This document shows, one piece after another, positions 3,326-63,605 of a stretch of DNA of 64,000 bases. How positions within the stretch are numbered: the first letter of the stretch is position 1; each line of letters opens with the position of its first letter. Made by a program: the position numbers and the translations under genes. Under the pieces are notes generated by a model. The model did no database searches. It saw only the letters and a program-made list of their open reading frames with translations, and had not been told where the DNA came from. Origin of the DNA: Phage NC-G; sequence record MK310184; one strand, written 5' to 3'.

Positions 3326-5410
3326 TTACCCTTGGATGAATTTTTCTGGGATGTCATAGAGGTCTATGCATGAAGCCAAAAGAGGCAGTACGTCAAACCG
3401 TGTAGATTTAACAAATGAATCAAAAGATACAGGGCTTTCGGAAGTATCGAAGTCATCTTGGTATACAACCAATTCACCAGTTTCCATTAGTACGTCGCCA
3501 TCATACACTACAGATTCTTGAAGCTCATCTGTCGTCATAACTTCGGCTTGAACGAGTTTTGTATTATTAGATGTTGTTCCGTCATTATTAGAGGCGTCAG
3601 TTATTTTATTAACTTTGACCATCAATCCGCGTGGTAGAATAACTTCAGCTTCGGTTGCTATTCCGAGACTTCCTGGATATACAACATTAACTTTATGGGC
3701 TCCATCAATTGCCCATCCTATTTGAACTTTAACGTAATCAGGGTTTTCTTTATACGCTCTTATTTCATTAGGATTAATGGTTATTCCTTCTTCATTTTTA
3801 TCGACTGTCAATTCATTGCGAACTTCCGGTTCTAAAAGACCTACACCCGCGTGTGTAACACCAAAACGTCCAAAAATGATAGGAGTCAGTGAAGTAGATA
3901 CAAAATTTCTGAAATAGAACACTTTATTTTTAACTAGCGCTTCGTATATAGGAGCAGTCATACTTTGAGCACGATAAACTGTAATGCCTTCTGGTATACG
4001 GTCACCATTTTCAAAAGCGGAATCAAGATTATTAACAGCAGATTCAATAGACCTTTCACTCATCACATCATAGTTCTGAGGATTGTAACGCCCTAAAAGA
4101 AGATTATTGATGTCGGTATATCCTGAGCCACAATATTCTCTAATGCCACGCTTTTGTGATGGGGTGTATTTAGAACCATCGCGAGCAATAGTAATATCGA
4201 CCATAATACCACCACCTACGCCAGCAAAACTATACACGCGTTTTTTAATGAACTTGGTCTTGGCTGCTTTCCACTTGGACTCGGTTAATTCATTCCAGAC
4301 GTCGTCAGGTTGACCTTTACGAGTTTTGTTATGTATAGCCAACCATTCACCTTTGTATTCTTCGAAAACCGTATTAATAACAGAGGCATATTTTTCTAGA
4401 GCTTTAACAGATGTCAAAGGTTCGTTTTTGATGGCTGTAAGAATTTTCTCTTTAATTTTCTCTTGAATTTCACCTATGCCGTGAAGTGGAAACATTTTAT
4501 ATTCGTAATGCAACTCTTCAGCAGTGCCTTCAGCTACTATATTAGCAACTTTATTTTTAGCCGCAGGAGAATTGTTATTGGTGACCATTTCCTGGGCCTC
4601 AGGGATTAACGGAGCTGTTGCAGGTTTATTAAAATCTGCTGCAGTAGCTTCATATTTCTTAAACAGTTCACTTTCATTACGATAAGATTCTAAAGATTGA
4701 CTGGCTGCAATAGCTCGACGAGAAATCTTAGTCTTGGTTACAACCATTTTATCAGTGCGACGTTCTTCGACTTTAGCAATACTGCCGGCAATAGCAGTTT
4801 CTTTAGTAACCTGCATGCCTTCTTTTTTAGAAATATAAACTTCGCCAACATCAGAATCTACCTTAGTATACAAATCAGCATTAATTCCTGGCATACCTTT
4901 GATATCTTCAATATCAGCTTGTTTACGAACTACTAGGATATAAGTATGTTTACCAGTAAATTGGTACATAGCCGGAACTACTTTGAAGCGGCCGCCTGTT
5001 TTTTGAGTTACCAAACGTTGGATGATTCTCTGGACGATAGGTCCTTGCCCTTTCATTTTCTTGGTTGGAAAACGGAACATGATAGCATCCATACGAAGCT
5101 TTTTAACTTGTTCGAATACTACGTCGAAAATGGTATTAATAGCATCAATAGGAGTAGGGCCTAAGCCGCCTTTAAGTTCGGCTGGAGAACCTTTAGCTGA
5201 AAGGCTCATAAGGATAACGTGGGCGTATTTATCACCTAATTTAACCTGTTTAATAGCATCGCCTTCAGAGGCATAAGATACCATACGAGCAACTAATTGG
5301 GATTCGGCGTCGCCAATCTTCCAAATCTGCGGTACTTTAAGTTTTGGGTTTAAGTTTACAGTAGGCAGGGTGCCTTCGGACTCAAACACCTCATTCAATT
5401 GTTCGGTCAT
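3326..5410 (-). CDS. alt: Alt-like ADP-ribosyltransferase, paralog 2 (694 aa)
   Basis: N-terminal half closely parallels paralog 1; C-terminal half divergent but keeps YRA, FVSTS and EAEVILPRG. Stop is 3 nt from the paralog 1 start. Confidence 0.85.
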   Translation of the reverse strand: MTEQLNEVFESEGTLPTVNLNPKLKVPQIWKIGDAESQLVARMVSYASEGDAIKQVKLGDKYAHVILMSLSAKGSPAELKGGLGPTPIDAINTIFDVVFEQVKKLRMDAIMFRFPTKKMKGQGPIVQRIIQRLVTQKTGGRFKVVPAMYQFTGKHTYILVVRKQADIEDIKGMPGINADLYTKVDSDVGEVYISKKEGMQVTKETAIAGSIAKVEERRTDKMVVTKTKISRRAIAASQSLESYRNESELFKKYEATAADFNKPATAPLIPEAQEMVTNNNSPAAKNKVANIVAEGTAEELHYEYKMFPLHGIGEIQEKIKEKILTAIKNEPLTSVKALEKYASVINTVFEEYKGEWLAIHNKTRKGQPDDVWNELTESKWKAAKTKFIKKRVYSFAGVGGGIMVDITIARDGSKYTPSQKRGIREYCGSGYTDINNLLLGRYNPQNYDVMSERSIESAVNNLDSAFENGDRIPEGITVYRAQSMTAPIYEALVKNKVFYFRNFVSTSLTPIIFGRFGVTHAGVGLLEPEVRNELTVDKNEEGITINPNEIRAYKENPDYVKVQIGWAIDGAHKVNVVYPGSLGIATEAEVILPRGLMVKVNKITDASNNDGTTSNNTKLVQAEVMTTDELQESVVYDGDVLMETGELVVYQDDFDTSESPVSFDSFVKSTRFDVLPLLASCIDLYDIPEKFIQG

Positions 5411-5448
5411 AATAATTCCTCTTTAATAACCGTATTTATGCCATAAAA

Positions 5449-5460
5449 GGCCCGAAGGCC
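5449..5460 (-). terminator. C(UUCG)G hairpin after the small ligase-distal ORF
   Basis: Minus strand ggcc-uucg-ggcc followed by TTTTAT. Confidence 0.45.
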
Positions 5461-5631
5461 TTAAAGTGGTAGCAACGTACGATATACTTCGAATGTCGGG
5501 CCTTTTTCATAGCCATCAAACATGTCTTTAAAATCGGCAAAAGCTATTTCATCCTCAAACTCTAGGATGATTTGAGAGGCCGCAGTGGTATTTGTGTTTG
5601 TTACAACAATTGTTTCTAAATAAGCTTTCAT
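5461..5631 (-). CDS. Small hypothetical protein (about 56 aa; the track ORF is longer)
   Basis: Internal Met start lies 1 nt after the ligase stop; the longer track ORF would overlap ligase by 41 nt. Confidence 0.4.
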   Translation of the reverse strand: MKAYLETIVVTNTNTTAASQIILEFEDEIAFADFKDMFDGYEKGPTFEVYRTLLPL

Positions 5632-10076: not shown

Positions 10077-10114
10077 AGATGTATACCCTTTTTTAAAGAT
10101 TTAGAAACAAAAAT

Positions 10115-10132
10115 GGGACTCCGAAGAGTCCC
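10115..10132 (-). terminator. Rho-independent terminator, C(UUCG)G hairpin
   Basis: Minus strand gggactc-uucg-gagtccc followed by ATTTTTGTTT. Confidence 0.7.
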
Positions 10133-10137
10133 ATAAC

Positions 10138-29551: not shown

Positions 29552-29559
29552 TATAAATA
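29552..29559 (+). promoter_or_regulatory. Late promoter (TATAAATA) for gene 34
   Basis: Exact TATAAATA about 33 nt upstream of the gene 34 start. Confidence 0.7.
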
Positions 29560-29591: not shown

Positions 29592-32500
29592 ATGGCTGAT
29601 ATTTTAAAACCTGCATTCCGTGCTACATCCGGACTCGATGCTGCGGGCGAGAAAGTTATCAATGTTGCCAAAGCCGATTACAATGTACTAGATGATGGCG
29701 TCAACGTTGAATTCTTTATAGATGAGAACACCATCCAGGCGTACGACGAGACGCGCGGATATAAGAAAGGGTTTGCAGTAATCCATGACCAACGTATTTG
29801 GGTTGCTCAACGTGATATCGCTGCACCGGCCGGAACTTTTGTACCTGGTTATTGGACCGCTACCCGTACCGACCCTAAGTGGATTACAGTAGCCTCTCCT
29901 ACTCGCCAGTTGGCTTCCGGTGAATATATTGCGGTGGACTCAGCTGCTAGCTTTACTACATTTACTCTTCCTCCGAACCCTACTGATGGCGATACCATTG
30001 TAATCAAGGACATCGGTGGCCGTGTAGGTTATAATGAAATCAAGGTTCAATCTAGTTCTGCACCCGGTGGTGGTAACCAGAAAATTGTTCGATTTGGTAA
30101 TCAGTTCTCTGAAACTCTGATAACCAAACCTTTTTCTTATAACATGCTTATCTTTGCCAACCGCCTTTGGCATTTCTGGGAAGCAGGTAACGAAGAACGT
30201 GGTATTCGCGTAGAGCCTAATACTGCACAGTTCCAAGCTCAAGCAGGTGATAACGTTTTACGTCGTTATACTTCAGGTGCAGTAATTAAGTTTACTCTTC
30301 CTAAGTATGCGAACCAAGGTGACATGGTTAAAACCGTAGATATCGATGGTCTTGGAAGTAAGTTCCACTTAATCGTTGAAACCTTTGATGCATCGTCTTC
30401 ATTAGGTAAGCCTGGTCAGCATAGCATGGAATTCCGTACCTCCGGTGATGGGTTCTTTGTTTATAACTCCGTTGAAAAAATGTGGTATGTTTGGGACGGC
30501 GACCGTCAAACTCGTCTGCGTGTTATTCGTGATGACGTAGAACTATTGGCTAACGAAAGCATTATTGTTTTTGGTCCTAATAACACAACTCCACAAACTA
30601 TTAATATCACTTTACCTACTAGCGTAGCACAAGGCGATACTATTAAAATCGCATTGAACTATCTTCGTAAAGCACAGACAGTAAATATTAAGGCTGCTGT
30701 AGGTGATAAAATTGCTTCTTCGGTTCAATTGCTCCAGTTCCCTAAACGTTCTGAATATCCACCAGATACTGAATGGGTGTTGAATGATGTATTGACCTTT
30801 AATGGTAATATAAGTTATACCCCGGTTATTGAACTGAGTTATATCGAAGACACCATTACAGGCGGTAAATATTGGGTTGTTGCTCAGAACGTTCCTACGG
30901 TAGAACGTGTGGATTCTAAGGATGATTTAACTCGTGCTCGTCTCGGTGTTATTGCCCTTGCGTCTCAGACCCAGGCAAACGTCGACCATGAAAATAATCC
31001 TGAAAAAGAACTTGCAATTACTCCGCAGACTTTAGCCAATCGTGTTGCCACTGAAACTCGTCGTGGTATTGCTCGTATTGCTACGACTGCTCAGGTGAAC
31101 CAAGATACAACTTTCGCTTTCCAGGATGATTTGATTATTTCTCCTAAGAAATTAAACGAACGCACTGCAACCGAAACTCGTCGTGGTGTAGCTGAAATTG
31201 CTACGCAACAGGAAACTGATGCTGGTGTTGACGATACCACCATTATTACTCCTAAGAAGCTACAGACGCGCCAGGGCACTGAAAGTCTTTCAGGTATTGT
31301 AAAATATACCTCTACGGTAGACACCACTCCTGCGACTGCTAGAGACACTGTAGGTACTAACGTTTATAATAAGAACGTAAATAACCTTGTTATTTCTCCT
31401 AAAGCTTTAGACCAATATAAAGCTACTCAAGCCCAACAAGGTACGGTATATCTTTCTACCCAGTCAGAAGTTAATACCGGACAATCCGCTAGTGGATTCG
31501 CTAACAGTGCTGTTTCTCCAGAAACATTGCATGCTCGTGTGGCTCTTGATACTCGTACAGGGTTAATTGAAATTGCTACGCAACAGGAAACTGATACTGG
31601 AACCGATTATACTCGTGCTGTAACGCCTAAGACGTTAAATGATAGGAAGGCTACAGAGACTTTAACTGGTATTGCTCGTATTGGTACTCAAGTAGAATTT
31701 GATGCAGGTGTATTAGATAATGTTATTTCAACTCCGTTGAAAATTAAAACAAGATTTGATGATACTGCTAGAACTTCTGTCTCAGCAGCCAGTGGTTTGA
31801 TTGAATCAGGAACCTTATGGAACCATTATACACTAGATATTAGAGAAGCAAATGAGACCCAACGTGGCACCGCTCGTCTGGCGACCCAGACCGAAGTCAA
31901 TGTTGGTACTGATGACAAAACCATCATCACTCCTTTGAAATTACACTCTAAAAAATCTACTGAAAGTTCTGAAGGTATTATTCGTGTTGCAACGAATACC
32001 GAAACCACTGCAGGAACTTCTAAAGTTTTGGCTGTAAGCCCTTCTGGTTTAAAATATGTAGTACAGACCGAAACCACTTGGGAAGCTACTGCGCTTCGTC
32101 GTGGATTTGTTAAATTGACCGAAGGCGCTTTGACTTACTCAGGAAATAAAGTTACCGGTTCCGGTGTTAAATTTAACTCGGGTACAGGCCTTTATGAGAA
32201 TGACGATACTGTTCTGAATGCAGCCAACTATCCTAAAACAGGTTATGCGGTTTCATCTTACGAGATGAATAAAACTTTACAGAACTTTTTACCTATAAAT
32301 GCTACGGCGGTGAACTCCGAGAAATTGGATGGCCTGGATTCACTTCAGTTCATTCGTAGAGACGTCGACCAAACGGTTAATGGTTCTTTAACCCTGACCA
32401 AACAATTGAACCTGGCGGCCCCTCTGGTGTCTTCTAGTACTGCTACATTTACGGATGTTACAGCTACTAATTCTACCTTTGGTACAGTGAACGTTGTTAA

Positions 32501-33560
32501 CGGAACTAATAAATGGAAAATAACATCTCCATCTACCGGAACTACGTTAACTATCGGTGATACTACTAACGTATTAACCATGAACACTGCTACAGGTAAT
32601 GTTGCTGCACTTAACAACCTTAGCGCGGGTAATGATGTTCAAGCCAAAAATAACTTTGTGTTAAATGGAAGAACTATCGCAACCACCACCGGTGAAGCTT
32701 CTGGTGCTACATTGTCTTTAGGCGATAACTCACAGAATTTAGTGCTCAAAACTCTTGATGCTGGTAATATCATAGCAAATGGTGGCGGTGCATTTAAAGT
32801 TCTTACTGAGAAAAACGCAGTAGAAATTGTAGACAGAAACTTTGTTAACCAAGCCGGTGATACAATGTCCGGTGTACTCCGTGTGAATGCTCCGGTTCGT
32901 GTATTTGGTACTAAGCCTACTCTTGCTTCTCAGGTTCCTACTGCGGAAACAGTCGGCTTCTGGTCTGTTGATATCAATGACGAGGCCACTTATAGTAAGT
33001 TCCCTGGTTACTGGACTATGAAGACCAAACGTCAGGTTAATATCGATACGGTCCAAACTAAACCTGCTGGTGTTTCTGATGAGGTATGGAATGCTTCTGG
33101 TTGGTTAACGGAAACCGGTGCATTTAGTTCTCCAGCTATTCGTTATCGTAACGAAGACGGTAGTTTTGGTGATGAAGTTCTTGGTACGTCTGGCCAGAAA
33201 TTACGTGGCGCTTGGTTTGATTATTCTGTTCGTGATAAGGAAGTTAAATACCCGGGTACATTAACTCAGTTTGGTAATACGTTAGATTCATGTTATCAGG
33301 ATTGGGTGTGCTATCCTACAGGACTGAATGGCGGTACTATCCGTTACACCCGTACCTGGCAGAAGAATAAAAACGCATGGACTACGTTCTCAATGGTCTA
33401 TACGGCAGATAACCCTCCTTCTGCAGAAGATGTTGGTGCATTGCCTGCTGATAACGCTACAATGGGTAACATTACAATCCTTGATTGGTTGCGTATTGGT
33501 AACGTTCGCATTATTCCTGACCCGGTCACTAAATCCGTTAAGTTTGAGTGGATTGAATAA
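29592..33560 (+). CDS. 34: Long tail fibre proximal subunit
   Basis: 1322 aa; the N-terminus (MADILKPAFRATSGLDAAGEKVINVA...) parallels the T4 gp34 N-terminus. Confidence 0.9.
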   Translation: MADILKPAFRATSGLDAAGEKVINVAKADYNVLDDGVNVEFFIDENTIQAYDETRGYKKGFAVIHDQRIWVAQRDIAAPAGTFVPGYWTATRTDPKWITVASPTRQLASGEYIAVDSAASFTTFTLPPNPTDGDTIVIKDIGGRVGYNEIKVQSSSAPGGGNQKIVRFGNQFSETLITKPFSYNMLIFANRLWHFWEAGNEERGIRVEPNTAQFQAQAGDNVLRRYTSGAVIKFTLPKYANQGDMVKTVDIDGLGSKFHLIVETFDASSSLGKPGQHSMEFRTSGDGFFVYNSVEKMWYVWDGDRQTRLRVIRDDVELLANESIIVFGPNNTTPQTINITLPTSVAQGDTIKIALNYLRKAQTVNIKAAVGDKIASSVQLLQFPKRSEYPPDTEWVLNDVLTFNGNISYTPVIELSYIEDTITGGKYWVVAQNVPTVERVDSKDDLTRARLGVIALASQTQANVDHENNPEKELAITPQTLANRVATETRRGIARIATTAQVNQDTTFAFQDDLIISPKKLNERTATETRRGVAEIATQQETDAGVDDTTIITPKKLQTRQGTESLSGIVKYTSTVDTTPATARDTVGTNVYNKNVNNLVISPKALDQYKATQAQQGTVYLSTQSEVNTGQSASGFANSAVSPETLHARVALDTRTGLIEIATQQETDTGTDYTRAVTPKTLNDRKATETLTGIARIGTQVEFDAGVLDNVISTPLKIKTRFDDTARTSVSAASGLIESGTLWNHYTLDIREANETQRGTARLATQTEVNVGTDDKTIITPLKLHSKKSTESSEGIIRVATNTETTAGTSKVLAVSPSGLKYVVQTETTWEATALRRGFVKLTEGALTYSGNKVTGSGVKFNSGTGLYENDDTVLNAANYPKTGYAVSSYEMNKTLQNFLPINATAVNSEKLDGLDSLQFIRRDVDQTVNGSLTLTKQLNLAAPLVSSSTATFTDVTATNSTFGTVNVVNGTNKWKITSPSTGTTLTIGDTTNVLTMNTATGNVAALNNLSAGNDVQAKNNFVLNGRTIATTTGEASGATLSLGDNSQNLVLKTLDAGNIIANGGGAFKVLTEKNAVEIVDRNFVNQAGDTMSGVLRVNAPVRVFGTKPTLASQVPTAETVGFWSVDINDEATYSKFPGYWTMKTKRQVNIDTVQTKPAGVSDEVWNASGWLTETGAFSSPAIRYRNEDGSFGDEVLGTSGQKLRGAWFDYSVRDKEVKYPGTLTQFGNTLDSCYQDWVCYPTGLNGGTIRYTRTWQKNKNAWTTFSMVYTADNPPSAEDVGALPADNATMGNITILDWLRIGNVRIIPDPVTKSVKFEWIE

Positions 33561-33568
33561 GAGGTATT

Positions 33569-34690
33569 ATGGAAAGATTTATGGCAGAATTTGGACAAGG
33601 ATATGTCCAGGTTCCTACATTATCTGAAAACAATGCTGTAAGGTATAAACTTAGTATAGCTGGTAGTTGTACTAAGTCTACTAAAAAGGCGTATGTTAAA
33701 TTTCAAGATGGGGACTTCGGTCCCCAGAATTTTCAAAATGGACTAAACCTTATAGAAATTGATGTTAGTGCCGAACCTAAAGTGGTGGCTAACAAAACTT
33801 ATAGCTTTACAAAAGATTTTGATGTTATCTCTGAAGCTTTTATTACTTACATAAGTTCAATACCAGCCAATAGAATAGTTTGTTTAGTATCTTCCGGTAG
33901 ATTAAATGCTTCACAGAAACTTATTGATTGGTTCCGTGCAGCTGGAAGTACCGCATTTCCATCTAAATGGCTAATAGACCGCTTCGAGCCGTCTTATTCG
34001 GCCTTTTATGTGTCTGGTAGAAATACTATAGTGATGGAACATGTCCTTTATAATGATGGGGTGTTTGTTGAAGATGTTTCTACACCGTTAGAAGTCGTTT
34101 TTGACGATATCAGTGATGTAGGCGGGACCGGGTATCCTATAAGAATAGTGGAAGATGAAAACACTTATCTAAGTAATGGTGGGGAGGAAATAAAACGTTT
34201 CCCTACTGAATCTCCTACTACTCCTTGCGCTGATTATAATATGAAGCCTGGAGAATTCTTTTACCTTAAATTCCAAATGATGTGTGACCAGGAATTAAAA
34301 GATTTAGGGACTTCTCAAATGTCTGTTAGATTTTTTGATTCTAATAATGCTTTAACCGGTACGGTAAATATGGAAGTCCCATCTAATGTCCCTGCCGGGT
34401 CTTGGATGACTTTTGAGCGGGTAATTGAAGTTCCTGCTAATACTGAAACATTTACATTGTATGCAAGAAAAACAGTGGCCGATGGAGTTGGCGGTGTACG
34501 TAATGTGATGTTTGGGGAAGTATCAGAGCCAGAATCACAGCCTAAATCGGCTGAATTTGGTGTAAATGGTATTCGTATGAATTTCGGTACCGAAACTAAG
34601 AATATGGGTACTACCATAGCCCAGTTATACGATAAAACAGGTACTAAACCGGGACAGGTTTGGGTGTCTGAATTTAGAGAAAAATATTAA
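33569..34690 (+). CDS. 35: Long tail fibre hinge connector
   Basis: 373 aa immediately after 34; synteny and size. Confidence 0.8.
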   Translation: MERFMAEFGQGYVQVPTLSENNAVRYKLSIAGSCTKSTKKAYVKFQDGDFGPQNFQNGLNLIEIDVSAEPKVVANKTYSFTKDFDVISEAFITYISSIPANRIVCLVSSGRLNASQKLIDWFRAAGSTAFPSKWLIDRFEPSYSAFYVSGRNTIVMEHVLYNDGVFVEDVSTPLEVVFDDISDVGGTGYPIRIVEDENTYLSNGGEEIKRFPTESPTTPCADYNMKPGEFFYLKFQMMCDQELKDLGTSQMSVRFFDSNNALTGTVNMEVPSNVPAGSWMTFERVIEVPANTETFTLYARKTVADGVGGVRNVMFGEVSEPESQPKSAEFGVNGIRMNFGTETKNMGTTIAQLYDKTGTKPGQVWVSEFREKY

Positions 34691-34706
34691 GGAACCTTCG
34701 GGTTCC
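34691..34706 (+). terminator. Terminator hairpin C(UUCG)G after gene 35
   Basis: ggaacc-uucg-ggttcc followed by TTTTTCGTTTT. Confidence 0.65.
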
Positions 34707-34765
34707 TTTTTCGTTTTCTACAGCCATAAATATATAAAAGGCTATAACTCCCAAAGGAAACTCAA

Positions 34766-35413
34766 ATGGCAGATTTAAAATTAGGTTCTACAGCAGGAGG
34801 TTCGGTATTATGGCACCAAGGTAATTTCCCCTTAACGCCCGTATCAAATGACCTTCTTTACAAAACATATAAAGTTTACACCGAGTATAATAAACCTCAA
34901 GCAGTTGATAACGATTTCGTTTCAAAAGCTAACGGTGGTAATTATCAGAACAACGTGTATTTTGAAAAAGGTTTGACCTTTAATGATACTAATGGATATG
35001 GTATTAAATTAGGAGCAAGAACAGGTGGAGCCCCGTTCACAGCTTCTTTCCGTATTAAAGGTGCTTTTGGATATGAAACGGAAGACGGTACTCCGTTTGT
35101 GATATTTGACCCAAGTACAGTAGTGGGTGCTAAACGTCTTACCGTAATGGGTGATTCATTATTCCGCCAAGTATATGATGAATCGGGCCGCGTATTCAGC
35201 CCTGGCAACACCCCTACTAAGGCCCAAGTTGGATTGTCATTAGTAGATAACGCAAAACAGGTCCAAATAAATAATACTAATATGCAAACCATGACTGGAG
35301 TACTTGCTGCTCCTAACTTCATTTCATTAAATCCGGCCTCTGACGCAGGACATGTTCCGCGTTTCGACCAGATTGTTATTAAAGATTCTATCCAAGATTT
35401 TGGTTATTATTAA
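34766..35413 (+). CDS. 36: Long tail fibre proximal connector of the distal half
   Basis: 215 aa; synteny and size. Confidence 0.8.
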   Translation: MADLKLGSTAGGSVLWHQGNFPLTPVSNDLLYKTYKVYTEYNKPQAVDNDFVSKANGGNYQNNVYFEKGLTFNDTNGYGIKLGARTGGAPFTASFRIKGAFGYETEDGTPFVIFDPSTVVGAKRLTVMGDSLFRQVYDESGRVFSPGNTPTKAQVGLSLVDNAKQVQINNTNMQTMTGVLAAPNFISLNPASDAGHVPRFDQIVIKDSIQDFGYY

Positions 35414-35421
35414 GAGGCATT

Positions 35422-38400
35422 ATGGCTACTTTAAAACAGATACAATTTAAAAGAAGTAAAGTAGCTGGTGTACGTCCTACGCCAGCGCAGTTGGCTGAAG
35501 GCGAGCTGGCTATTAACTTAAAAGACCGTTTGTTATTTACCAAAGATGACACTGGAGCGATTATCGACCTTGGCTTTGCTAAAGGTGGTAATATTGACGG
35601 TAACGTTATCCATAAAGGAAATTACACCCAGACAGGCGATTACGCCCTAAATGGTACCTTTACCCAAACCGGCGATTTTAATTTAACCGGTATTGCTCGT
35701 GTAACTCGTGATATTATTGCCGCAGGTCAGATATTGACCCACGGTGGCGAACTTATTTCTAAGAGTGCCTCAACTTCTCACCTTCGTTTCTTTGATGGCA
35801 ATGACCGTGAACGTGGTATTATCTTTTCTCCTAATAATGCAGGAGCAACCAACCAAGTAGTTAATATTCGAGTACAAGATTATTCTACTGCAAGCGAAAG
35901 CACTTATGCATTTTCAGGCAGTGGTTTGTTCACTTCACCTGAAGTATCAGCATGGAAATCTATTTCATCTCCACAAATTCTGACCGATAAAGTTATTACA
36001 AACGGGAAGAAGGCAGGCGATTATGATATCTATTCAATGGCTGATAATAGCCCATTGTCTGAAAGCGAAACAGCTATTAACCACCTTCGTGTTATGCGAA
36101 ATGCCGTAGGTGCTGGTGTATTCCATGAAGTTAAAGATAATGACGGGTTAACCTGGTATGCTGGAGATGGATTGGACGCTTATCTTTGGTCATTTACATG
36201 GTCAGGTGGATTGAAAGCGGGTCATTCCATGTCTGTTGGTCTTCCAGGTGGCCCTAAAGGATATTCTGAATTAGGAACAGCTTCAATTGCTCTTGGTGAT
36301 AATAATACCGGATTTAAATGGCATCAGGATGGATATTTCCATACAGTAAACAACGGCACAAGAACTTTCATCTACGGGCCGGAAGAAACACAAAGCCTTA
36401 GAAAAATGGTTATGGGCTATTCTCCGGATGGGGTTCTTATGACAACGCCGCCGGCAGAAAATTATGCCTTAGCTACTGTTGTCACTTATCATGATAATAA
36501 CGCGTATGGTGATGGTCAAACTCTTTTAGGTTATTATCAAGGTGGTAATTATCACCATTATTTCCGTGGTAAGGGTACTACAAACATTAACACCGCCGGT
36601 GGTTTGTTGGTTACTCCTGGTAATATTGATGTCGTTGGTGGTTCAGTTAATATTGATGGCCGTAATAACAACTCGGTTTTGCTTTTTAAAGGTTATACTG
36701 CTGGCCAGAGCTCTGTTGATAATATGTCTATTGCTGTATGGGGTAACACCTTTAACACGGTAGACGGCTTTCGTAAAAACGTGATGGAAATATCTGATGG
36801 TATTAGCTGGATGCATTATATTCAGCGTAATAAAGATAATACCATTGAGGCCGTATTAAATGGTCAACAAACTATTAACGAAAATCTTGTTGTCAAAAAA
36901 GATATTTTAGTTGATAAGGCGGTCCACACCGCCGGCGAAATTACTACAAGTGCCGTTAATGGGCTCCGCATCTGGAACGCAGATTATGGAGCCATTTTTA
37001 GACGTTCAGAAGAAAGTCTTCATATTATTCCAACTGCTTATGGCGAAGGCAAAAATGGCGATATCGGTCCACTTCGCCCGTTTAGTATGGCTTTAGATAC
37101 TGGTAAAGTTACTATTCCAGATTTACAATCAAAATACAATACGATCACTGCGAACGGCTATATTAAATTTGTTGGCCATGGTGCAGGCGCTGGTGGTTAT
37201 GATATTCAATATGCTCAAGCAGCTCCTGTTTTCCAGGAAATTGATGATGATGCTGTAAGCAAATATTATCCTATTGTTAAGCAAAAATTCTTACAAGGAA
37301 AAGCTGTTTGGTCTTTAGGTACTGAAATTAATTCTGGGACTTTTGTTTTGCACCATCTTAAAGAAGACGGGACCCAGGGTCATACCTCAAGATTTAATGC
37401 CGATGGTACAGTTAATTTCCCTGATAACGTGCAGGTTGGCGGTGGTGAAGCTACTATTGCTCGTAATGGTAACATCTTCTCTGATATTTGGAAAGTATTT
37501 ACCTCTGCCGGTGATATAACTAACATTCACGATGCTATTGCCTCTCGTGTTGCTAAAGAAGGCGATACAATGACAGGTAAGCTGACTATTGCCGCTGCGG
37601 ATGATGCTTTATTGATTAAAGCCCCGAATGCCAATAATAGTTCTCATATCCGTTCAGAAGTCGCCGGTTCTAATAGCTGGTTTGTTGGTAAAGGCGGTGA
37701 AAGTGATACGGTATCTTTTTATAACTACAAAACAACAACCGGTCTAGATTTGAGTGATAATGGAGTAATTTCATTTAGTCCTAAATCATTTAATTTAGCT
37801 CAAATGAGTGAAAACCGCCTGTGGATTAATGGAACAAGATGGGTTGCCACAAATCCAGGCGCTATTAGCGGACAATTCGCACTTGAGGCTCCTTTATTTG
37901 TAGAACACGGCTACCTGAATGGTAACGTTTATTACCCGATTGTTAAAGGCCGAAGTTCTTCTGCAGGGTTTGGATACACGTCCTCCGTAGAGCTAGGTAC
38001 TTTACGCAGTGGTAATGCGGACTGGGCCACTGGTTGTATAATTGTTCGTTCAGCTGAAAATACACCAGAACAAGGACATCCTGCAGCGGTTTATCAATTT
38101 AAGGCCAACGGCCAGTTTAGTTCCCCGGGAAGAATTGTTTCAGGATGGACAGGTATGGGTGTAGGTGTTGAACCCGCCTGGACTACGCCGTGTATTGCTA
38201 TTGGCGACAATGACACTGGATTGCTCTGGGAAAGCGATGGCGTCTACAACATGTATGCTAACGGGCAAGGTGTATTCAGTATTCGAGCCGGACTTGCTCA
38301 GACATTCGGTGGTGTTAACTTACACTGTAATGCAGGTATGTATGTTCGTGATAACATTGATGTTAACGACGTTTATATTCGTTCTGATATTCGTTGTAAG

Positions 38401-38700
38401 TCGGAAATTAAGCTTATCGAGAATGCCCAAGAGAAATCTAAACTCTTAGGCGGTTATACTTATCTGCTTAAAAACTCTGTCACAGATGAAGTTAAACCGT
38501 CTGCCGGTTTAATTGCCCAGGAAGTTCAAGAAGTATTGCCTGAACTTGTGACCGAAGATAAAGAGACTGGCTTACTTCGTTTAAACTATAACGGTATTAT
38601 CGGTTTAAATACTGCTACTATCAACGAGCATACTGACGAAATCAAGGAATTGAAATCTGAAATTGCTGAGTTGAAAGCATTAATTAAATCATTATTATAA
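35422..38700 (+). CDS. 37: Long tail fibre distal subunit with C-terminal intramolecular-chaperone-like domain
   Basis: 1092 aa; C-terminal [11 protein letters not shown] (Ser-Lys dyad) and a coiled-coil tail typical of self-cleaving chaperone domains. Confidence 0.88.
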
Positions 38701-38703
38701 GAA

Positions 38704-38719
38704 AGGGCCTTCGGGCCCT
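38704..38719 (+). promoter_or_regulatory. C(UUCG)G hairpin between 37 and 38
   Basis: agggcc-uucg-ggccct directly before the GGAGG Shine-Dalgarno of gene 38; no T-run. Confidence 0.45.
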
Positions 38720-38729
38720 GGAGGTTTTT

Positions 38730-39509
38730 ATGGCAGTAGTAGGAATTCCTGGTTGGATTGGAACTTCAGCGGTTGCTGAAACAGGCCAGCGTTGGATGTC
38801 AGCGGCCTCTAGAGAATTACGTCTAGGGAACCCATCTTGGATGTCCCAATTTGCTGGTCGCTCAAGAGAAATTATTCACACACTTGGCGCCGACCATAAC
38901 TTTAATGGGCAATGGTTTAGAGACCGTTGTTTTGAAGCCGGCGGTGCTCCTATAGTGTTTAATATCACAGGCAACTTAGTATCATATACTAAAGATGTTC
39001 CGTTGTTCTTTATGTACGGTGATACCCCTAACGAATATGTTACTTTGAATATTCATGGTGGTGTTCATATGTGGGGCCGAGGTGGCAACGGTACAGTAAA
39101 TGGAAGCCCAGGCACTAATGGTGGTGACGTAATCCAAAATGATATTGGTGGACGACTTCGCATTTGGAATTATGGCGTGATAGCCTCCGGTGGTGGTGGT
39201 GGCGGTGCCGCATCATTACAGAATAGTTGGCCTGCAAATGCTACAGCAGGTGGCGGCGGCGGCAGGCCATTTGGTCTCGGCGGTGGTGGTGTTAATTGGC
39301 CAGGCGGCAATGCTAGTTATGATGGTCCAGGTGGCGGTGGTAATGCAAGCCAATTTGGCGGCGGCAATGGCGGTGATGCTGGAGGCGCTGGCGGCGATGG
39401 ATGGGGTAATCACTTATCCAGGTCGGGTGGTGGTGCTCCTGGTAGAGCAGTATTCGGTTCCTCTCCATCATGGGGCGCTACAGGCACCATCTACGGCTCT
39501 TGGTTATAA
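38730..39509 (+). CDS. 38: T2-type receptor-recognising adhesin gp38
   Basis: Conserved N-terminus ([15 protein letters not shown]...[31 protein letters not shown]) and C-terminal polyglycine motifs separated by variable segments. Confidence 0.85.
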
Positions 39510-39525
39510 TACGAAAGTATTAAAT

Positions 39526-39533
39526 TATAAATA
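39526..39533 (+). promoter_or_regulatory. Late promoter (TATAAATA) for holin t
   Basis: Exact TATAAATA about 19 nt upstream of the t start. Confidence 0.6.
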
Positions 39534-39551
39534 TCTTTAAAGGAGAAAAGT

Positions 39552-40205
39552 ATGGAACCAAAAGTAGGATTTTCATTATCAGACCTACTTTTTGGACTTC
39601 TTGATAGAATTTTTAAAGATACTTCTTCCGGGAAAGTTGTTTTTTCCCGGGTCCTAGTCGTAATATTATTGTTCTTTATGGCATTAGTTTGGTATAAAGG
39701 CGAGCATATTCTAAACTTTTATAAAGAGACAACTTATGCCTCTTATACTGAAATGATTAGACAAGACCAGGACAATAGATTTAAAATTGCGGCTATCGAG
39801 CAGCTCCGAATAGTGCATTCTTCTTCAGGCGCAGACTTCACAGCAATATATTCTTTTAGACCAACCAACATGAATTATTTTGTGGACATGGTTGCTTATG
39901 AGGGTAAATTACCGGAAACGGTAGACGCAAAAAATACGGGAGGATTTCCGATTGACAAAACGTCAGTAGAGTATATGGCGGGAGTTAACGGAAACTATTT
40001 TGAATCAAGTACAGAAACTGTGTTCCTTCCTACAAAGAAGAAAACCCAATTCACGTATATGTTTTCATGCCCGTTTTTTAATTTGGATAACATCTATGCC
40101 GGCTCGATATCATTATACTGGTATGACATCAAACCGGATTTAGGATTTCCTAGACTTTCGTCTATGTGTGGTCAGGCTGGGAGGACATTAGGTCGAACTC
40201 GTTAA
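39552..40205 (+). CDS. t: Holin T
   Basis: 217 aa; LLFGLLDRIFKD...VILLFFMALVWY...YEGKLP matches T4 holin. Confidence 0.9.
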   Translation: MEPKVGFSLSDLLFGLLDRIFKDTSSGKVVFSRVLVVILLFFMALVWYKGEHILNFYKETTYASYTEMIRQDQDNRFKIAAIEQLRIVHSSSGADFTAIYSFRPTNMNYFVDMVAYEGKLPETVDAKNTGGFPIDKTSVEYMAGVNGNYFESSTETVFLPTKKKTQFTYMFSCPFFNLDNIYAGSISLYWYDIKPDLGFPRLSSMCGQAGRTLGRTR

Positions 40206-42960: not shown

Positions 42961-42980
42961 AAGGAACCCGAAGGTTCCTT
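42961..42980 (-). terminator. C(UUCG)G terminator hairpin
   Basis: Minus strand ggaacc-uucg-ggttcc followed by a T-run. Confidence 0.6.
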
Positions 42981-63502: not shown

Positions 63503-63605
63503 AGTGTTCTCCTCTTGTTTTGATAGGACTACTATAACACTGTTTTACAAGGATGTAAACTGTAGAAACGAAAAAAGGAATCCCGAAGGATTCCTTATAA
63601 TTAAC

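What the first reader, a model, noticed from the sequence alone, without database searches (positions are those of the whole stretch)
35422..39509. T2-type tail-fibre tip: gp37 with a self-cleaving-chaperone-like C-terminus and a polyglycine adhesin gp38
gp37 ends with an [11 protein letters not shown] Ser-Lys dyad and a coiled-coil tail, typical of intramolecular chaperone domains. gp38 has a conserved N-terminus and C-terminal polyglycine stretches separated by variable segments, the architecture of T2-type adhesins rather than the T4-type assembly chaperone. Receptor specificity is therefore expected to reside in the gp38 variable loops.
Basis: partly seen in the sequence, partly recalled or inferred. 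Interest (0 to 1): 0.4.

Follow-up and report, generated by a model that had tools for sequence, protein, structure and literature searches.

The report
Ordinary T2-type phage tail-fibre tip

Summary
The observation and the interpretation both hold. ORFs 35422-38700 (gp37, 1092 aa) and 38730-39509 (gp38, 259 aa) sit in a T-even long-tail-fibre operon, g34-g35-g36-g37-g38-t, of a Dhakavirus (JS98/JS10-like) genome.

**gp37.** It carries a Pfam Peptidase_S74 intramolecular-chaperone domain starting at S988. S988, D989 and K993 are invariant in 50-51 of 51 aligned homologues. Its model matches the endosialidase and MyRF chaperone structures. The last 37 residues form a heptad-repeat helix.

**gp38.** It matches Pfam GP38 (E 5e-82) and Gp38_N. 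It is 51% identical to T2 gp38 and unrelated to T4 gp38 (E = 1). Its AlphaFold model matches only the PP01 and S16 gp38 crystal structures (TM 0.8-0.9). Variability across 70 homologues concentrates in four segments between invariant glycine runs.

**Known status.** Both proteins are identical to deposited proteins of "Phage NC-G".

**Receptor.** gp38 falls in the same 90%-identity cluster as RB51 and FL31 gp38, whose phages need OmpF, so OmpF is the likely receptor. This is an inference.

**Not testable here.** Cleavage (predicted at R987^S988) and receptor binding cannot be tested in silico.

The finding is already known and of low interest.

The parts
35422..38700 (+). g37, distal long-tail-fibre subunit (1092 aa, stop codon included)
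   Evidence: ORF. PHROG 1699 'long tail fiber protein distal subunit' covers it full length at 1237 bits. It is 34% identical to both T2 and T4 gp37 over the N-terminal two thirds. The protein is identical to QBP35590.1 of Phage NC-G.
36772..37086 (+). gp37 aa 451-555, Gp34_trimer-like shaft domain
   Evidence: Pfam PF21446, E 5.9e-07. Matches the T4 gp34 C-terminal structure 4uxe, E 5e-14.
37606..37803 (+). gp37 aa 729-794, gp37_trimer region
   Evidence: Pfam PF20744, E 1.3e-06, 28.7 bits against a cut-off of 21.7.
38185..38382 (+). gp37 aa 922-987, distal tip that precedes the cleavage site and should form the gp38 docking surface; it ends in DVYIR
   Evidence: Aligns with the S16 gp37 tip in 6f45_A, including the [10 protein letters not shown] motif. 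DVYIR is identical to the fPS-phage sequence for which cleavage after R is predicted (PMC7917993). The monomer AF2 model is poor here, pLDDT 43-56, as expected for an interdigitated trimer.
38380..38412 (+). [11 protein letters not shown] motif; predicted scissile bond R987^S988; catalytic pair S988 (38383-38385) and K993 (38398-38400)
   Evidence: Position. S988 is conserved in 50/51, D989 in 51/51 and K993 in 51/51. The S16 cleavage site is DLNVS^SDRRIKK (PMC7917993, citing Dunne 2018).
38383..38697 (+). gp37 aa 988-1092, intramolecular chaperone (Peptidase_S74) domain, predicted to be released after trimerisation
   Evidence: Pfam PF13884 at 988-1044, E 3.3e-12. AF2 pLDDT is 90-98 over the domain. 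Foldseek matches 7dc3 (MyRF ICA, E 1e-5, TM 0.57-0.70) and 3gw6 (endosialidase intramolecular chaperone, prob 1.00).
38587..38697 (+). gp37 aa 1056-1092, C-terminal heptad-repeat helix (the 'coiled-coil tail')
   Evidence: A single helix in the model, residues 136-171 at pLDDT 94-98. The a/d heptad register is occupied by I, N, I, H, I, L, I, L, I, L.
38704..38719 (+). C(UUCG)G tetraloop hairpin in the g37-g38 spacer, directly before the GGAGG ribosome-binding site of g38
   Evidence: The computed fold energy is -12.3 kcal/mol. It is conserved, with stem changes that keep pairing, in T2, T4, JS98, Bp7 and Shf125875. Its function (RNA stabiliser or processing barrier) is inferred, not tested.
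38730..39509 (+). g38, T2/S16-type tail-fibre adhesin (259 aa, stop codon included)
   Evidence: Pfam GP38 E 4.8e-82 and Gp38_N E 8.2e-21. PHROG 2056 'tail fiber protein; host specificity' E 1.4e-108. The protein is identical to QBP35591.1 of Phage NC-G.
38730..38855 (+). gp38 aa 1-42, N-terminal attachment domain with three tryptophans (W9, W22, W37)
   Evidence: Pfam PF21721. In the 70-sequence alignment W9 and W22 are conserved in at least 90%; W37 is invariant among the 20 sequences. These correspond to the tryptophan prongs that insert into gp37 pockets in S16 (PMC6851490). AF2 confidence is low for residues 1-20 in the isolated monomer.
38856..39074 (+). gp38 aa 43-115, first part of the central beta-helix (the most conserved region)
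   Evidence: Mean entropy is 0.92 bits, the lowest of the three regions. pLDDT is 82-96 with beta strands. It is 88-100% identical across E. coli-phage gp38 types.
39075..39434 (+). gp38 aa 116-235, glycine-rich motifs that form the polyglycine-II sandwich carrying the variable loops
   Evidence: Invariant glycine columns G116-121, G154-159, G174-178, G182/185, G201, G212-215, G218 and G221. pLDDT is mostly 86-97, dipping to 63 in the block covering residues 161-170, with no DSSP helix or strand, as expected for PGII. Rmsd is 1.5 A to the PP01 receptor-binding domain 9v85_C.
39093..39119 (+). HVS1, gp38 aa 122-130 (TVNGSPGTN)
   Evidence: High column entropy and a site of insertions in homologues.
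39207..39248 (+). HVS2, gp38 aa 160-173 ([14 protein letters not shown])
   Evidence: The highest-entropy stretch. It is 0-7% identical to the Tsx- and OmpA-type adhesins, 57% to T2, and 79-100% within the FL34/Bp7/Shf125875 group (RB51 and FL31 carry the same HVS2 as Shf125875).
39285..39362 (+). HVS3, gp38 aa 186-211 (two loops: [14 protein letters not shown] and NASQF); it contains Q208 (39351-39353), equivalent to RB51 Q206
   Evidence: Entropy peaks at 186-192 and 204-211. Alignment with RB51. RB51 Q206L switches the receptor from OmpF to OmpW (bioRxiv 10.64898/2026.04.02.716166).
39393..39431 (+). HVS4, gp38 aa 222-234 ([13 protein letters not shown])
   Evidence: Entropy peak at 222-233, with insertions in homologues.
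39435..39506 (+). gp38 aa 236-259, conserved C-terminal strands that return to the beta-helix
   Evidence: G238, A240, V241, P246, W248, G252, I254 and G256 are nearly invariant. Strands 241-243, 247-250 and 253-255 have pLDDT 90-95.

Best explanation
This is the distal tip module of a T2-type long tail fibre in a Dhakavirus-like T-even phage.

**Proposed mechanism.**
1. gp37 is made as a 1092-residue precursor.
2. Its last 105 residues are an S74-type intramolecular chaperone. This domain nucleates trimerisation of the preceding beta-helical tip, helped by the heptad-repeat helix at its own C-terminus.
3. The chaperone then removes itself by Ser988/Lys993-catalysed cleavage of the R987-S988 bond.
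4. Cleavage exposes a flat trimeric end (...DVYIR). One gp38 monomer docks on it through its N-terminal three-helix attachment domain, using W9, W22 and W37.
5. gp38 presents a polyglycine-II sandwich at the very tip. The loops between its glycine runs (HVS1-4) contact an outer-membrane porin and set host range.
6. The receptor is most likely OmpF, by similarity to RB51, FL31 and FL34.

**Shown here.**
- Gene order
- Domain identity
- Conservation of the catalytic residues
- Fold
- The pattern of variability
- Absence of any T4-type features

**Inferred from experiments on T2, S16, PP01, RB51 and the FL phages.**
- The cleavage itself
- The 3:1 stoichiometry
- The receptor
For: - **Operon context.** The order is g34-g35-g36-g37-g38-t on the + strand.
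- **Chaperone domain.** Pfam S74 starts at S988. S, D and K are invariant in 50-51 of 51 homologues. gp37 922-1091 aligns with the S16 gp37 tip plus chaperone at E 1.7e-30, and 825-1081 aligns with the T2 gp37 C-terminus. The chaperone model matches 7dc3 and 3gw6.
- **Adhesin.** Pfam GP38 E 4.8e-82. PDB 9v85 E 4e-73 and 6f45_D E 2.6e-50. The AF2 model has pLDDT 86.6 and pTM 0.80. It matches only gp38 adhesin structures, with TM up to 0.91 and rmsd 1.5 A. The three tryptophans are conserved. Variability is confined to four inter-glycine segments.
- **Published mechanism.** T2 and T6 gp37 are proteolytically processed and capped by gp38 (PMC3157838, citing Drexler 1986). S16 autocleaves its last 113 residues at S^SDRRIKK and exposes the docking site (PMC7917993, citing Dunne 2018). 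The S16 tip structure is described in PMC6851490.
- **Receptor.** Window gp38 is in the same 90% cluster as RB51 and FL31 gp38 and is 87-88% identical to them, with nearly identical HVSs. RB51 needs OmpF (PMC3157838; bioRxiv 10.64898/2026.04.02.716166). FL31, FL33 and FL34 need OmpF and TolC (PMC12032242).
Against: - Nothing in the sequence contradicts the model.
- **Receptor call.** Bp7 gp38 is 91% identical over residues 110-222, yet Bp7 is reported to use LamB and OmpC (cited in PMC10987938).
- **Receptor call.** The window allele differs from RB51 right next to the OmpF/OmpW switch residue (GGGGNASQF against GGAGYTSQF) and at A220/R. A single change in that loop is known to switch porins.
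- **Docking surface.** The monomer model of the gp37 tip (aa 921-985) has low confidence, so the docking surface itself was not modelled.
- **Catalytic motif.** Cys at position 992 occurs in only 2 of 51 aligned sequences. Its effect on cleavage is unknown.
Confidence: 0.93

Rival explanations
1. gp38 is a T4-type assembly chaperone that is absent from the virion, and the receptor-binding site lies in the gp37 C-terminus.
For: Several database records of close relatives still annotate the gene as 'distal long tail fiber assembly catalyst'. This is a historical carry-over from T4 nomenclature.
Against: There is no similarity to T4 gp38 (E = 1). The gp37 C-terminus has no T4 needle domain. gp38 matches the adhesin family and the adhesin structures only.
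Confidence: 0.01
2. The S74 domain is a non-cleaving relic that stays on mature gp37, and gp38 attaches elsewhere or only transiently.
For: Cleavage was not and cannot be observed here. The motif has an unusual Cys at 992.
Against: The catalytic Ser, Asp and Lys are intact and invariant. The sequence around the scissile bond, VYIR^SDIR, is identical to T2, whose gp37 is known to be processed (PMC3157838). In S16 the gp38 docking face exists only after cleavage (PMC7917993).
Confidence: 0.04
3. The module works as described, but the receptor is not OmpF. It could be LamB and OmpC as reported for Bp7, OmpW as for RB68, or a different OmpF loop variant.
For: Bp7 gp38 is 91% identical in residues 110-222, and Bp7 is reported to use LamB and OmpC (PMC10987938, citing Chen 2020). 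A single HVS3 substitution redirects RB51 to OmpW (bioRxiv 10.64898/2026.04.02.716166). The window has three substitutions beside that residue.
Against: Q208, the switch residue, is retained. HVS1, HVS2 and HVS4 are nearly identical to the OmpF-dependent RB51 and FL31. The deposited Bp7 g38 has two frameshifting deletions, which makes that record less reliable as a reference.
Confidence: 0.25

Closest known systems
Phage NC-G gp37 and gp38 (QBP35590.1, QBP35591.1), and near-identical Dhakavirus alleles (pEC-M719-6WT.2, UGJNEcP3/4)
   Same: The two NC-G proteins are identical to the window proteins. pEC-M719-6WT.2 gp38 is 98.5% identical and UGJNEcP4 gp38 98%. Gene order is the same.
   Different: Nothing differs at the protein level for NC-G. 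The deposited annotation says only 'tail fibers protein' or 'hypothetical protein', so the functional reading is more specific than the records.
RB51, FL31 and FL34 gp38 (OmpF-dependent adhesins of Tequatrovirus and Mosigvirus phages)
   Same: RB51 and FL31 are in the same 90%-identity cluster as the window gp38. The beta-helix, HVS1, HVS2 and HVS4 are nearly identical, and Q208 is retained.
   Different: RB51 and FL31 have a different N-terminal attachment-module type (MAVTG--PWVG...). In HVS3 they read GGAGYTSQF where the window reads GGGGNASQF, and they have R where the window has A220. The backbone genus differs, so the adhesin specificity region is shared across genera.
T2 gp37/gp38 (prototype of the processed fibre with an adhesin cap)
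   Same: gp38 is 51% identical end to end. The gp37 C-terminus is homologous, with an identical VYIRSDIR sequence. The C(UUCG)G hairpin in the g37-g38 spacer is also conserved.
   Different: T2 gp37 is 1341 aa against 1092 here. HVS identity is only 27-57%. T2 uses OmpF and FadL (PMC3157838).
Salmonella phage S16 gp37-gp38 tip complex (PDB 6F45) and the PP01 gp38 receptor-binding domain (PDB 9V85)
   Same: Same fold and domain order, with TM 0.80-0.91. Same chaperone and cleavage motif. The three tryptophan prongs are present (PMC6851490).
   Different: The window gp38 is 46% identical to S16 and 61-63% to PP01. Both of those use OmpC (S16: the title of reference 16 quoted; PP01: PMC12892980), and their HVS sequences differ. 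The S16 chaperone is 113 residues against 105 here (PMC7917993).
Endosialidase (K1F) C-terminal intramolecular chaperone and the MyRF ICA domain (Peptidase S74)
   Same: Pfam family, the Ser-Lys dyad with S-D-x-x-x-K spacing, the fold, and the C-terminal helix.
   Different: Only distant sequence similarity, 11-22% identity. Here the domain is attached to a fibre tip whose newly exposed end serves as a docking site for a second protein.
T4 gp38 chaperone and the T4 gp37 needle tip
   Same: Same gene position and name. The gp37 N-terminal two thirds are homologous (34% identity).
   Different: gp38 is unrelated. The gp37 C-terminus is not homologous beyond about aa 645. There is no S74 domain in T4 gp37 (my own knowledge; consistent).

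Membership tests
T2/S16-type gp38 tail-fibre adhesin (Pfam PF05268 GP38 + PF21721 Gp38_N) | Sequence membership above the curated thresholds for both domains | tested here: met
   GP38 scores 275.5 bits against a cut-off of 25. Gp38_N scores 74.2 bits against a cut-off of 25.
T2/S16-type gp38 tail-fibre adhesin (Pfam PF05268 GP38 + PF21721 Gp38_N) | N-terminal attachment domain with three conserved tryptophans that plug into gp37 | tested here: met
   W9, W22 and W37 are present. W9 and W22 are conserved in at least 90% of 70 sequences, and W37 is invariant in the 20-sequence alignment. Their role is taken from PMC6851490.
T2/S16-type gp38 tail-fibre adhesin (Pfam PF05268 GP38 + PF21721 Gp38_N) | Conserved glycine-rich motifs alternating with hypervariable segments in the C-terminal half | tested here: met
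   Glycine runs are invariant. Entropy peaks lie at 122-130, 160-173, 186-211 and 222-233. Residues 110-259 are 37% glycine.
T2/S16-type gp38 tail-fibre adhesin (Pfam PF05268 GP38 + PF21721 Gp38_N) | Three-domain fold: attachment domain, beta-helix, polyglycine-II sandwich | tested here: met
   The AF2 model (pLDDT 86.6) matches 9v85_C (TM 0.91 on the target, rmsd 1.5 A) and 6f45_D (TM 0.80-0.83). No other PDB match is below E = 2.
T2/S16-type gp38 tail-fibre adhesin (Pfam PF05268 GP38 + PF21721 Gp38_N) | Gene lies directly downstream of a g37 that ends in an S74 chaperone, and upstream of holin t | tested here: met
   The same order is seen in T2, JS98, Bp7 and Shf125875.
T2/S16-type gp38 tail-fibre adhesin (Pfam PF05268 GP38 + PF21721 Gp38_N) | Present in the virion as one monomer per gp37 trimer and binds an outer-membrane receptor | not testable with these tools
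   This needs virion proteomics, EM and adsorption assays. OmpF is inferred from RB51 and the FL phages.
Peptidase S74 / intramolecular chaperone auto-processing domain | Pfam PF13884 match above threshold at the C-terminus of a fibre or spike protein | tested here: met
   46.9 bits against a cut-off of 22, covering residues 988-1044 of 1092.
Peptidase S74 / intramolecular chaperone auto-processing domain | Catalytic Ser and Lys five residues apart (S-D-x-x-x-K) at the domain start | tested here: met
   S988 and K993. S is conserved in 50/51, D in 51/51 and K in 51/51.
Peptidase S74 / intramolecular chaperone auto-processing domain | Chaperone-domain fold with a C-terminal helix | tested here: met
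   Foldseek matches 7dc3 (E 1e-5) and 3gw6 (prob 1.00). There is a helix at 1056-1091 with a heptad pattern.
Peptidase S74 / intramolecular chaperone auto-processing domain | Autocatalytic release after trimerisation | not testable with these tools
   Shown experimentally for T2 (Drexler 1986, via PMC3157838) and S16 (Dunne 2018, via PMC7917993). It is only inferred here.
T4-type gp38 assembly chaperone with T4-type gp37 needle tip | gp38 homologous to T4 gp38 (183 aa) | tested here: not met
   BLASTP E = 1.0; the best segment has 5 identities in 14 residues.
T4-type gp38 assembly chaperone with T4-type gp37 needle tip | gp37 C-terminal domain homologous to the T4 gp37 receptor-binding needle | tested here: not met
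   The alignment with T4 gp37 stops at about query residue 645. Nothing significant follows.

The most novel reading that the evidence does not exclude
The window's gp38 allele carries three substitutions (G203, N205, A206 where RB51 has A, Y, T) directly beside Q208, plus A220 where RB51 has R. Q208 is the position where a single Q-to-L change redirects RB51 from OmpF to OmpW. This allele might therefore recognise a different porin, or a different OmpF loop variant, than its characterised relatives. That would make it a natural intermediate in porin switching. It has been carried on a g37-3'/g38 cassette into a Dhakavirus backbone whose flanking genes have a different ancestry.
Probability: 0.15. 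Interest if true: 0.25.

Novelty: already known. Interest (0 to 1): 0.1.

Why it matters
It matters mainly as correct annotation. The exact proteins are deposited only as 'tail fibers protein', and close relatives are still mislabelled 'assembly catalyst' or 'hypothetical protein'.

Reading them properly gives three practical predictions:
- The mature gp37 end is R987.
- gp38 is the host-range determinant.
- OmpF is the likely receptor.

These are useful for phage-therapy host-range prediction and for engineering by HVS swapping. None of this changes current understanding of T-even tail fibres.

Tried and rejected
- **T4-type chaperone reading.** Rejected by direct BLASTP.
- **Structured RNAs and tRNAs.** Rfam at gathering thresholds and ARAGORN over the whole window found nothing, so there is no hidden RNA element in the locus.
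- **Overlapping +2-frame ORF, 39190-39540 (116 aa) inside g38.** Rejected as a by-product of the GGN-rich coding sequence. The same alternative frame appears as the aberrant C-terminus of the deposited Bp7 gp38. That is explained by two single-base deletions in the Bp7 record, not by a real second product.
- **Aberrant C-terminus of the FL34 adhesin.** It lies at the end of the record and reads as G-rich, low-quality sequence. I therefore used FL31 and RB51 for the receptor comparison.
- **Late promoters in front of g37 or g38.** A search for TATAAATA found sites only before g34 and before t. The total count is no higher than chance.
- **First structure submission.** I repeated it without T2.
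- **Literature on 'Phage NC-G'.** Nothing was found.
- **Protein search with the gp37 C-terminal 272 residues.** It returned mostly short S74-domain fragments rather than full gp37s. That was adequate for checking catalytic-residue conservation but not for a gp37 phylogeny.

Full report
**What is there.**
The window is a T-even-type phage genome segment. Its backbone is closest to the Dhakavirus phages JS10 (95.2% nucleotide identity) and IME08 (91.9%) over the first 25 kb. The only + strand gene block is the long-tail-fibre operon:

| Gene | Coordinates | Length |
|---|---|---|
| g34 | 29592-33560 | 1322 aa |
| g35 | 33569-34690 | 373 aa |
| g36 | 34766-35413 | 215 aa |
| g37 | 35422-38700 | 1092 aa |
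| g38 | 38730-39509 | 259 aa |
| holin t | 39552-40205 | 217 aa |

These assignments rest, with PHROG matches. The coordinates of the finding are exactly g37 start to g38 stop.

**gp37.**
- The N-terminal two thirds are homologous to both T2 and T4 gp37, at 34% identity in each case. This part includes a Gp34_trimer-like domain (aa 451-555) and a gp37_trimer region (aa 729-794).
- The C-terminus is of the T2 kind only. Residues 825-1081 align with T2 gp37 1095-1340, and residues 922-1091 align with the S16 gp37 fragment crystallised in 6F45 (E 1.7e-30). Nothing aligns with the T4 needle domain.
- The motif [11 protein letters not shown] lies at aa 987-997, and Pfam Peptidase_S74 begins at S988 (E 3.3e-12).
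- In an alignment with T2 gp37 and 49 S74-bearing database proteins, S988 is conserved in 50/51, D989 in 51/51 and K993 in 51/51. The intervening positions vary. The dyad is therefore S988/K993.
- An AlphaFold model of aa 921-1092 is confident over the chaperone domain (pLDDT 90-98). It matches the MyRF ICA domain (7dc3, E 1e-5) and the endosialidase intramolecular chaperone (3gw6, prob 1.00).
- By analogy with the S16 site DLNVS^SDRRIKK and the predicted fPS-phage site DVYIR^SDGRLKI (PMC7917993), cleavage is predicted at DVYIR987^S988DIRCK. This would release a 105-residue fragment. Processing of T2 and T6 gp37 is long established (PMC3157838, citing Drexler 1986).

**gp38.**
- It matches Pfam GP38 (E 4.8e-82) and Gp38_N (E 8.2e-21).
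- It is 51% identical over its full length to T2 gp38 and has no similarity to T4 gp38 (E = 1.0).
- It matches the two solved adhesins: the PP01 receptor-binding domain 9V85 (E 4.2e-73) and S16 gp38 in 6F45 (E 2.6e-50).
- The AlphaFold model built from a 69-sequence alignment has pLDDT 86.6 and pTM 0.80. Against the PDB it matches only those two structures: TM 0.91 and rmsd 1.5 A to 9v85_C, and TM 0.80-0.83 to 6f45_D. The next hit is at E = 2.
- The three tryptophans that anchor S16 gp38 to gp37 (PMC6851490) are present as W9, W22 and W37 and are conserved.
- Glycine makes up 37% of residues 110-259.
- Column entropy over 70 homologues is near zero in the glycine runs. It peaks in 122-130, 160-173, 186-192 with 204-211, and 222-233. 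These are also the places where homologues carry insertions. This is the published architecture of five glycine-rich motifs and four hypervariable segments (PMC3157838, PMC12032242).
The most conserved region is the beta-helix, residues 43-115.

**Receptor inference.**
- The exact gp38 sequence belongs to a 123-member 90%-identity cluster that also contains the gp38 of RB51/RB68, FL31, EC128, UPEC01 and phiC120.
- RB51 requires OmpF (PMC3157838; bioRxiv 10.64898/2026.04.02.716166). FL31, FL33 and FL34 require OmpF and TolC (PMC12032242).
- Against RB51 and FL31, HVS1, HVS2 and HVS4 are nearly identical. Q208 corresponds to RB51 Q206, whose change to L switches the receptor to OmpW, and it is retained.
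- OmpF is therefore the best prediction.
- Three caveats apply:
  - The window has G203, N205 and A206 where RB51 has A, Y and T, right beside the switch residue, and A220 where RB51 has R.
  - Bp7 is 91% identical over residues 110-222 and is reported to use LamB and OmpC (PMC10987938).
  - The Bp7 record carries two frameshifting deletions in g38.

**Mosaicism.**
Sliding-window nucleotide identity gives the following picture.

| Segment | Closest relative(s) | Identity |
|---|---|---|
| g36 and the start of g37 | JS98, UGJNEcP3 | 92-100% |
| g37, 35816-36400 | pEC-M719-6WT.2 | 94-98% |
| g37, 36566-37016 | none of the five relatives | at most 82% |
| g37 3' part from 37466, plus g38 | pEC-M719-6WT.2 | 90-100% |
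| holin t | UGJNEcP3, Bp7 | 93-99% |
| holin t | pEC-M719-6WT.2 | 73-79% |

- gp38 is also 94.6% identical to that of Shf125875, a Mosigvirus.
- The tip module is thus a cassette exchanged within and between genera, as already described for T-even adhesins (PMC3157838).

**Known or new.**
- Both proteins are identical to QBP35590.1 and QBP35591.1 of 'Phage NC-G'.
- The family, its structure, the chaperone cleavage, the loop-based specificity and the modular exchange are all published.
- The finding is correct but ordinary.
- The only added value is a sharper annotation than the deposited 'tail fibers protein', plus a receptor prediction.

Noticed in passing
window 38704-38719, 34689-34708, 33709-33726, and 11 sites on the - strand (e.g. 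63575-63596, 42961-42980, 10113-10134): There are fourteen perfect C(UUCG)G tetraloop hairpins with 5-9 stem pairs. Each lies on the sense strand of the local genes, and several sit in intercistronic spacers. The one between g37 and g38 is conserved in T2, T4, JS98, Bp7 and Shf125875, with stem changes that keep the pairing. This looks like the classic T4 CUUCGG hairpins (my own knowledge). No function was tested.
   Followed up: partly
window 34766-40205, compared with L003, L005, L006, L007 and L008: The tail-fibre tip is a fine-scale mosaic. Flanking g36 and t follow the JS98/UGJNEcP3/Bp7 lineage. The g37 3' part plus g38 follow pEC-M719-6WT.2. A segment of about 450 nt in g37 (36566-37016) is at most 82% identical to all five relatives. 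gp38 is 94.6% identical to that of a Mosigvirus (Shf125875).
   Followed up: partly
window 29552-29559 and 39526-39533: The T4 late-promoter consensus TATAAATA occurs about 40 nt upstream of g34 and about 25 nt upstream of the holin gene t. It does not occur before g35, g36, g37 or g38. The total count in the window (5) is no higher than chance, so only the positions are suggestive.
   Followed up: no
L007 (Bp7, NC_019500) 4791-5582; L004 (FL34, PP400789) 101-913: The deposited Bp7 g38 has two single-base deletions relative to the window (at g38 nt 669 and 729), which give a frameshifted, non-homologous C-terminus. The 3' end of FL34 g38 lies at the end of the record and reads as G-rich, low-quality sequence. 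Both annotated proteins therefore have unreliable C-termini. This matters because Bp7 gp38 is used as a reference receptor-binding protein.
   Followed up: partly
window 33569-34690 (gp35), aa 57-130: There is a marginal Pfam match to ILEI (interleukin-like EMT inducer, FAM3-type domain), at 27.9 bits against a cut-off of 27 and E 3.4e-06, in the proximal hinge connector gp35. It is possibly a shared small beta-rich domain. It was not examined further.
   Followed up: no
window 29592-33560 (gp34), roughly aa 480-800: gp34 contains many tandem copies of a motif of about 40 residues of the form 'ATETRRG(I/V)A(E/R)IATQ.E....D....I(T/S)PK.L'. These were seen by eye in the translation. They were not quantified or compared with known fibre repeats.
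   Followed up: no
window 39190-39540 (+ strand, alternative frame inside g38): A 116-aa ORF overlaps the glycine-rich half of g38 in another frame. It is best explained as a by-product of the GGN codon bias, since GC content and GC skew peak here. It is the same frame into which the Bp7 record slips.
   Followed up: yes
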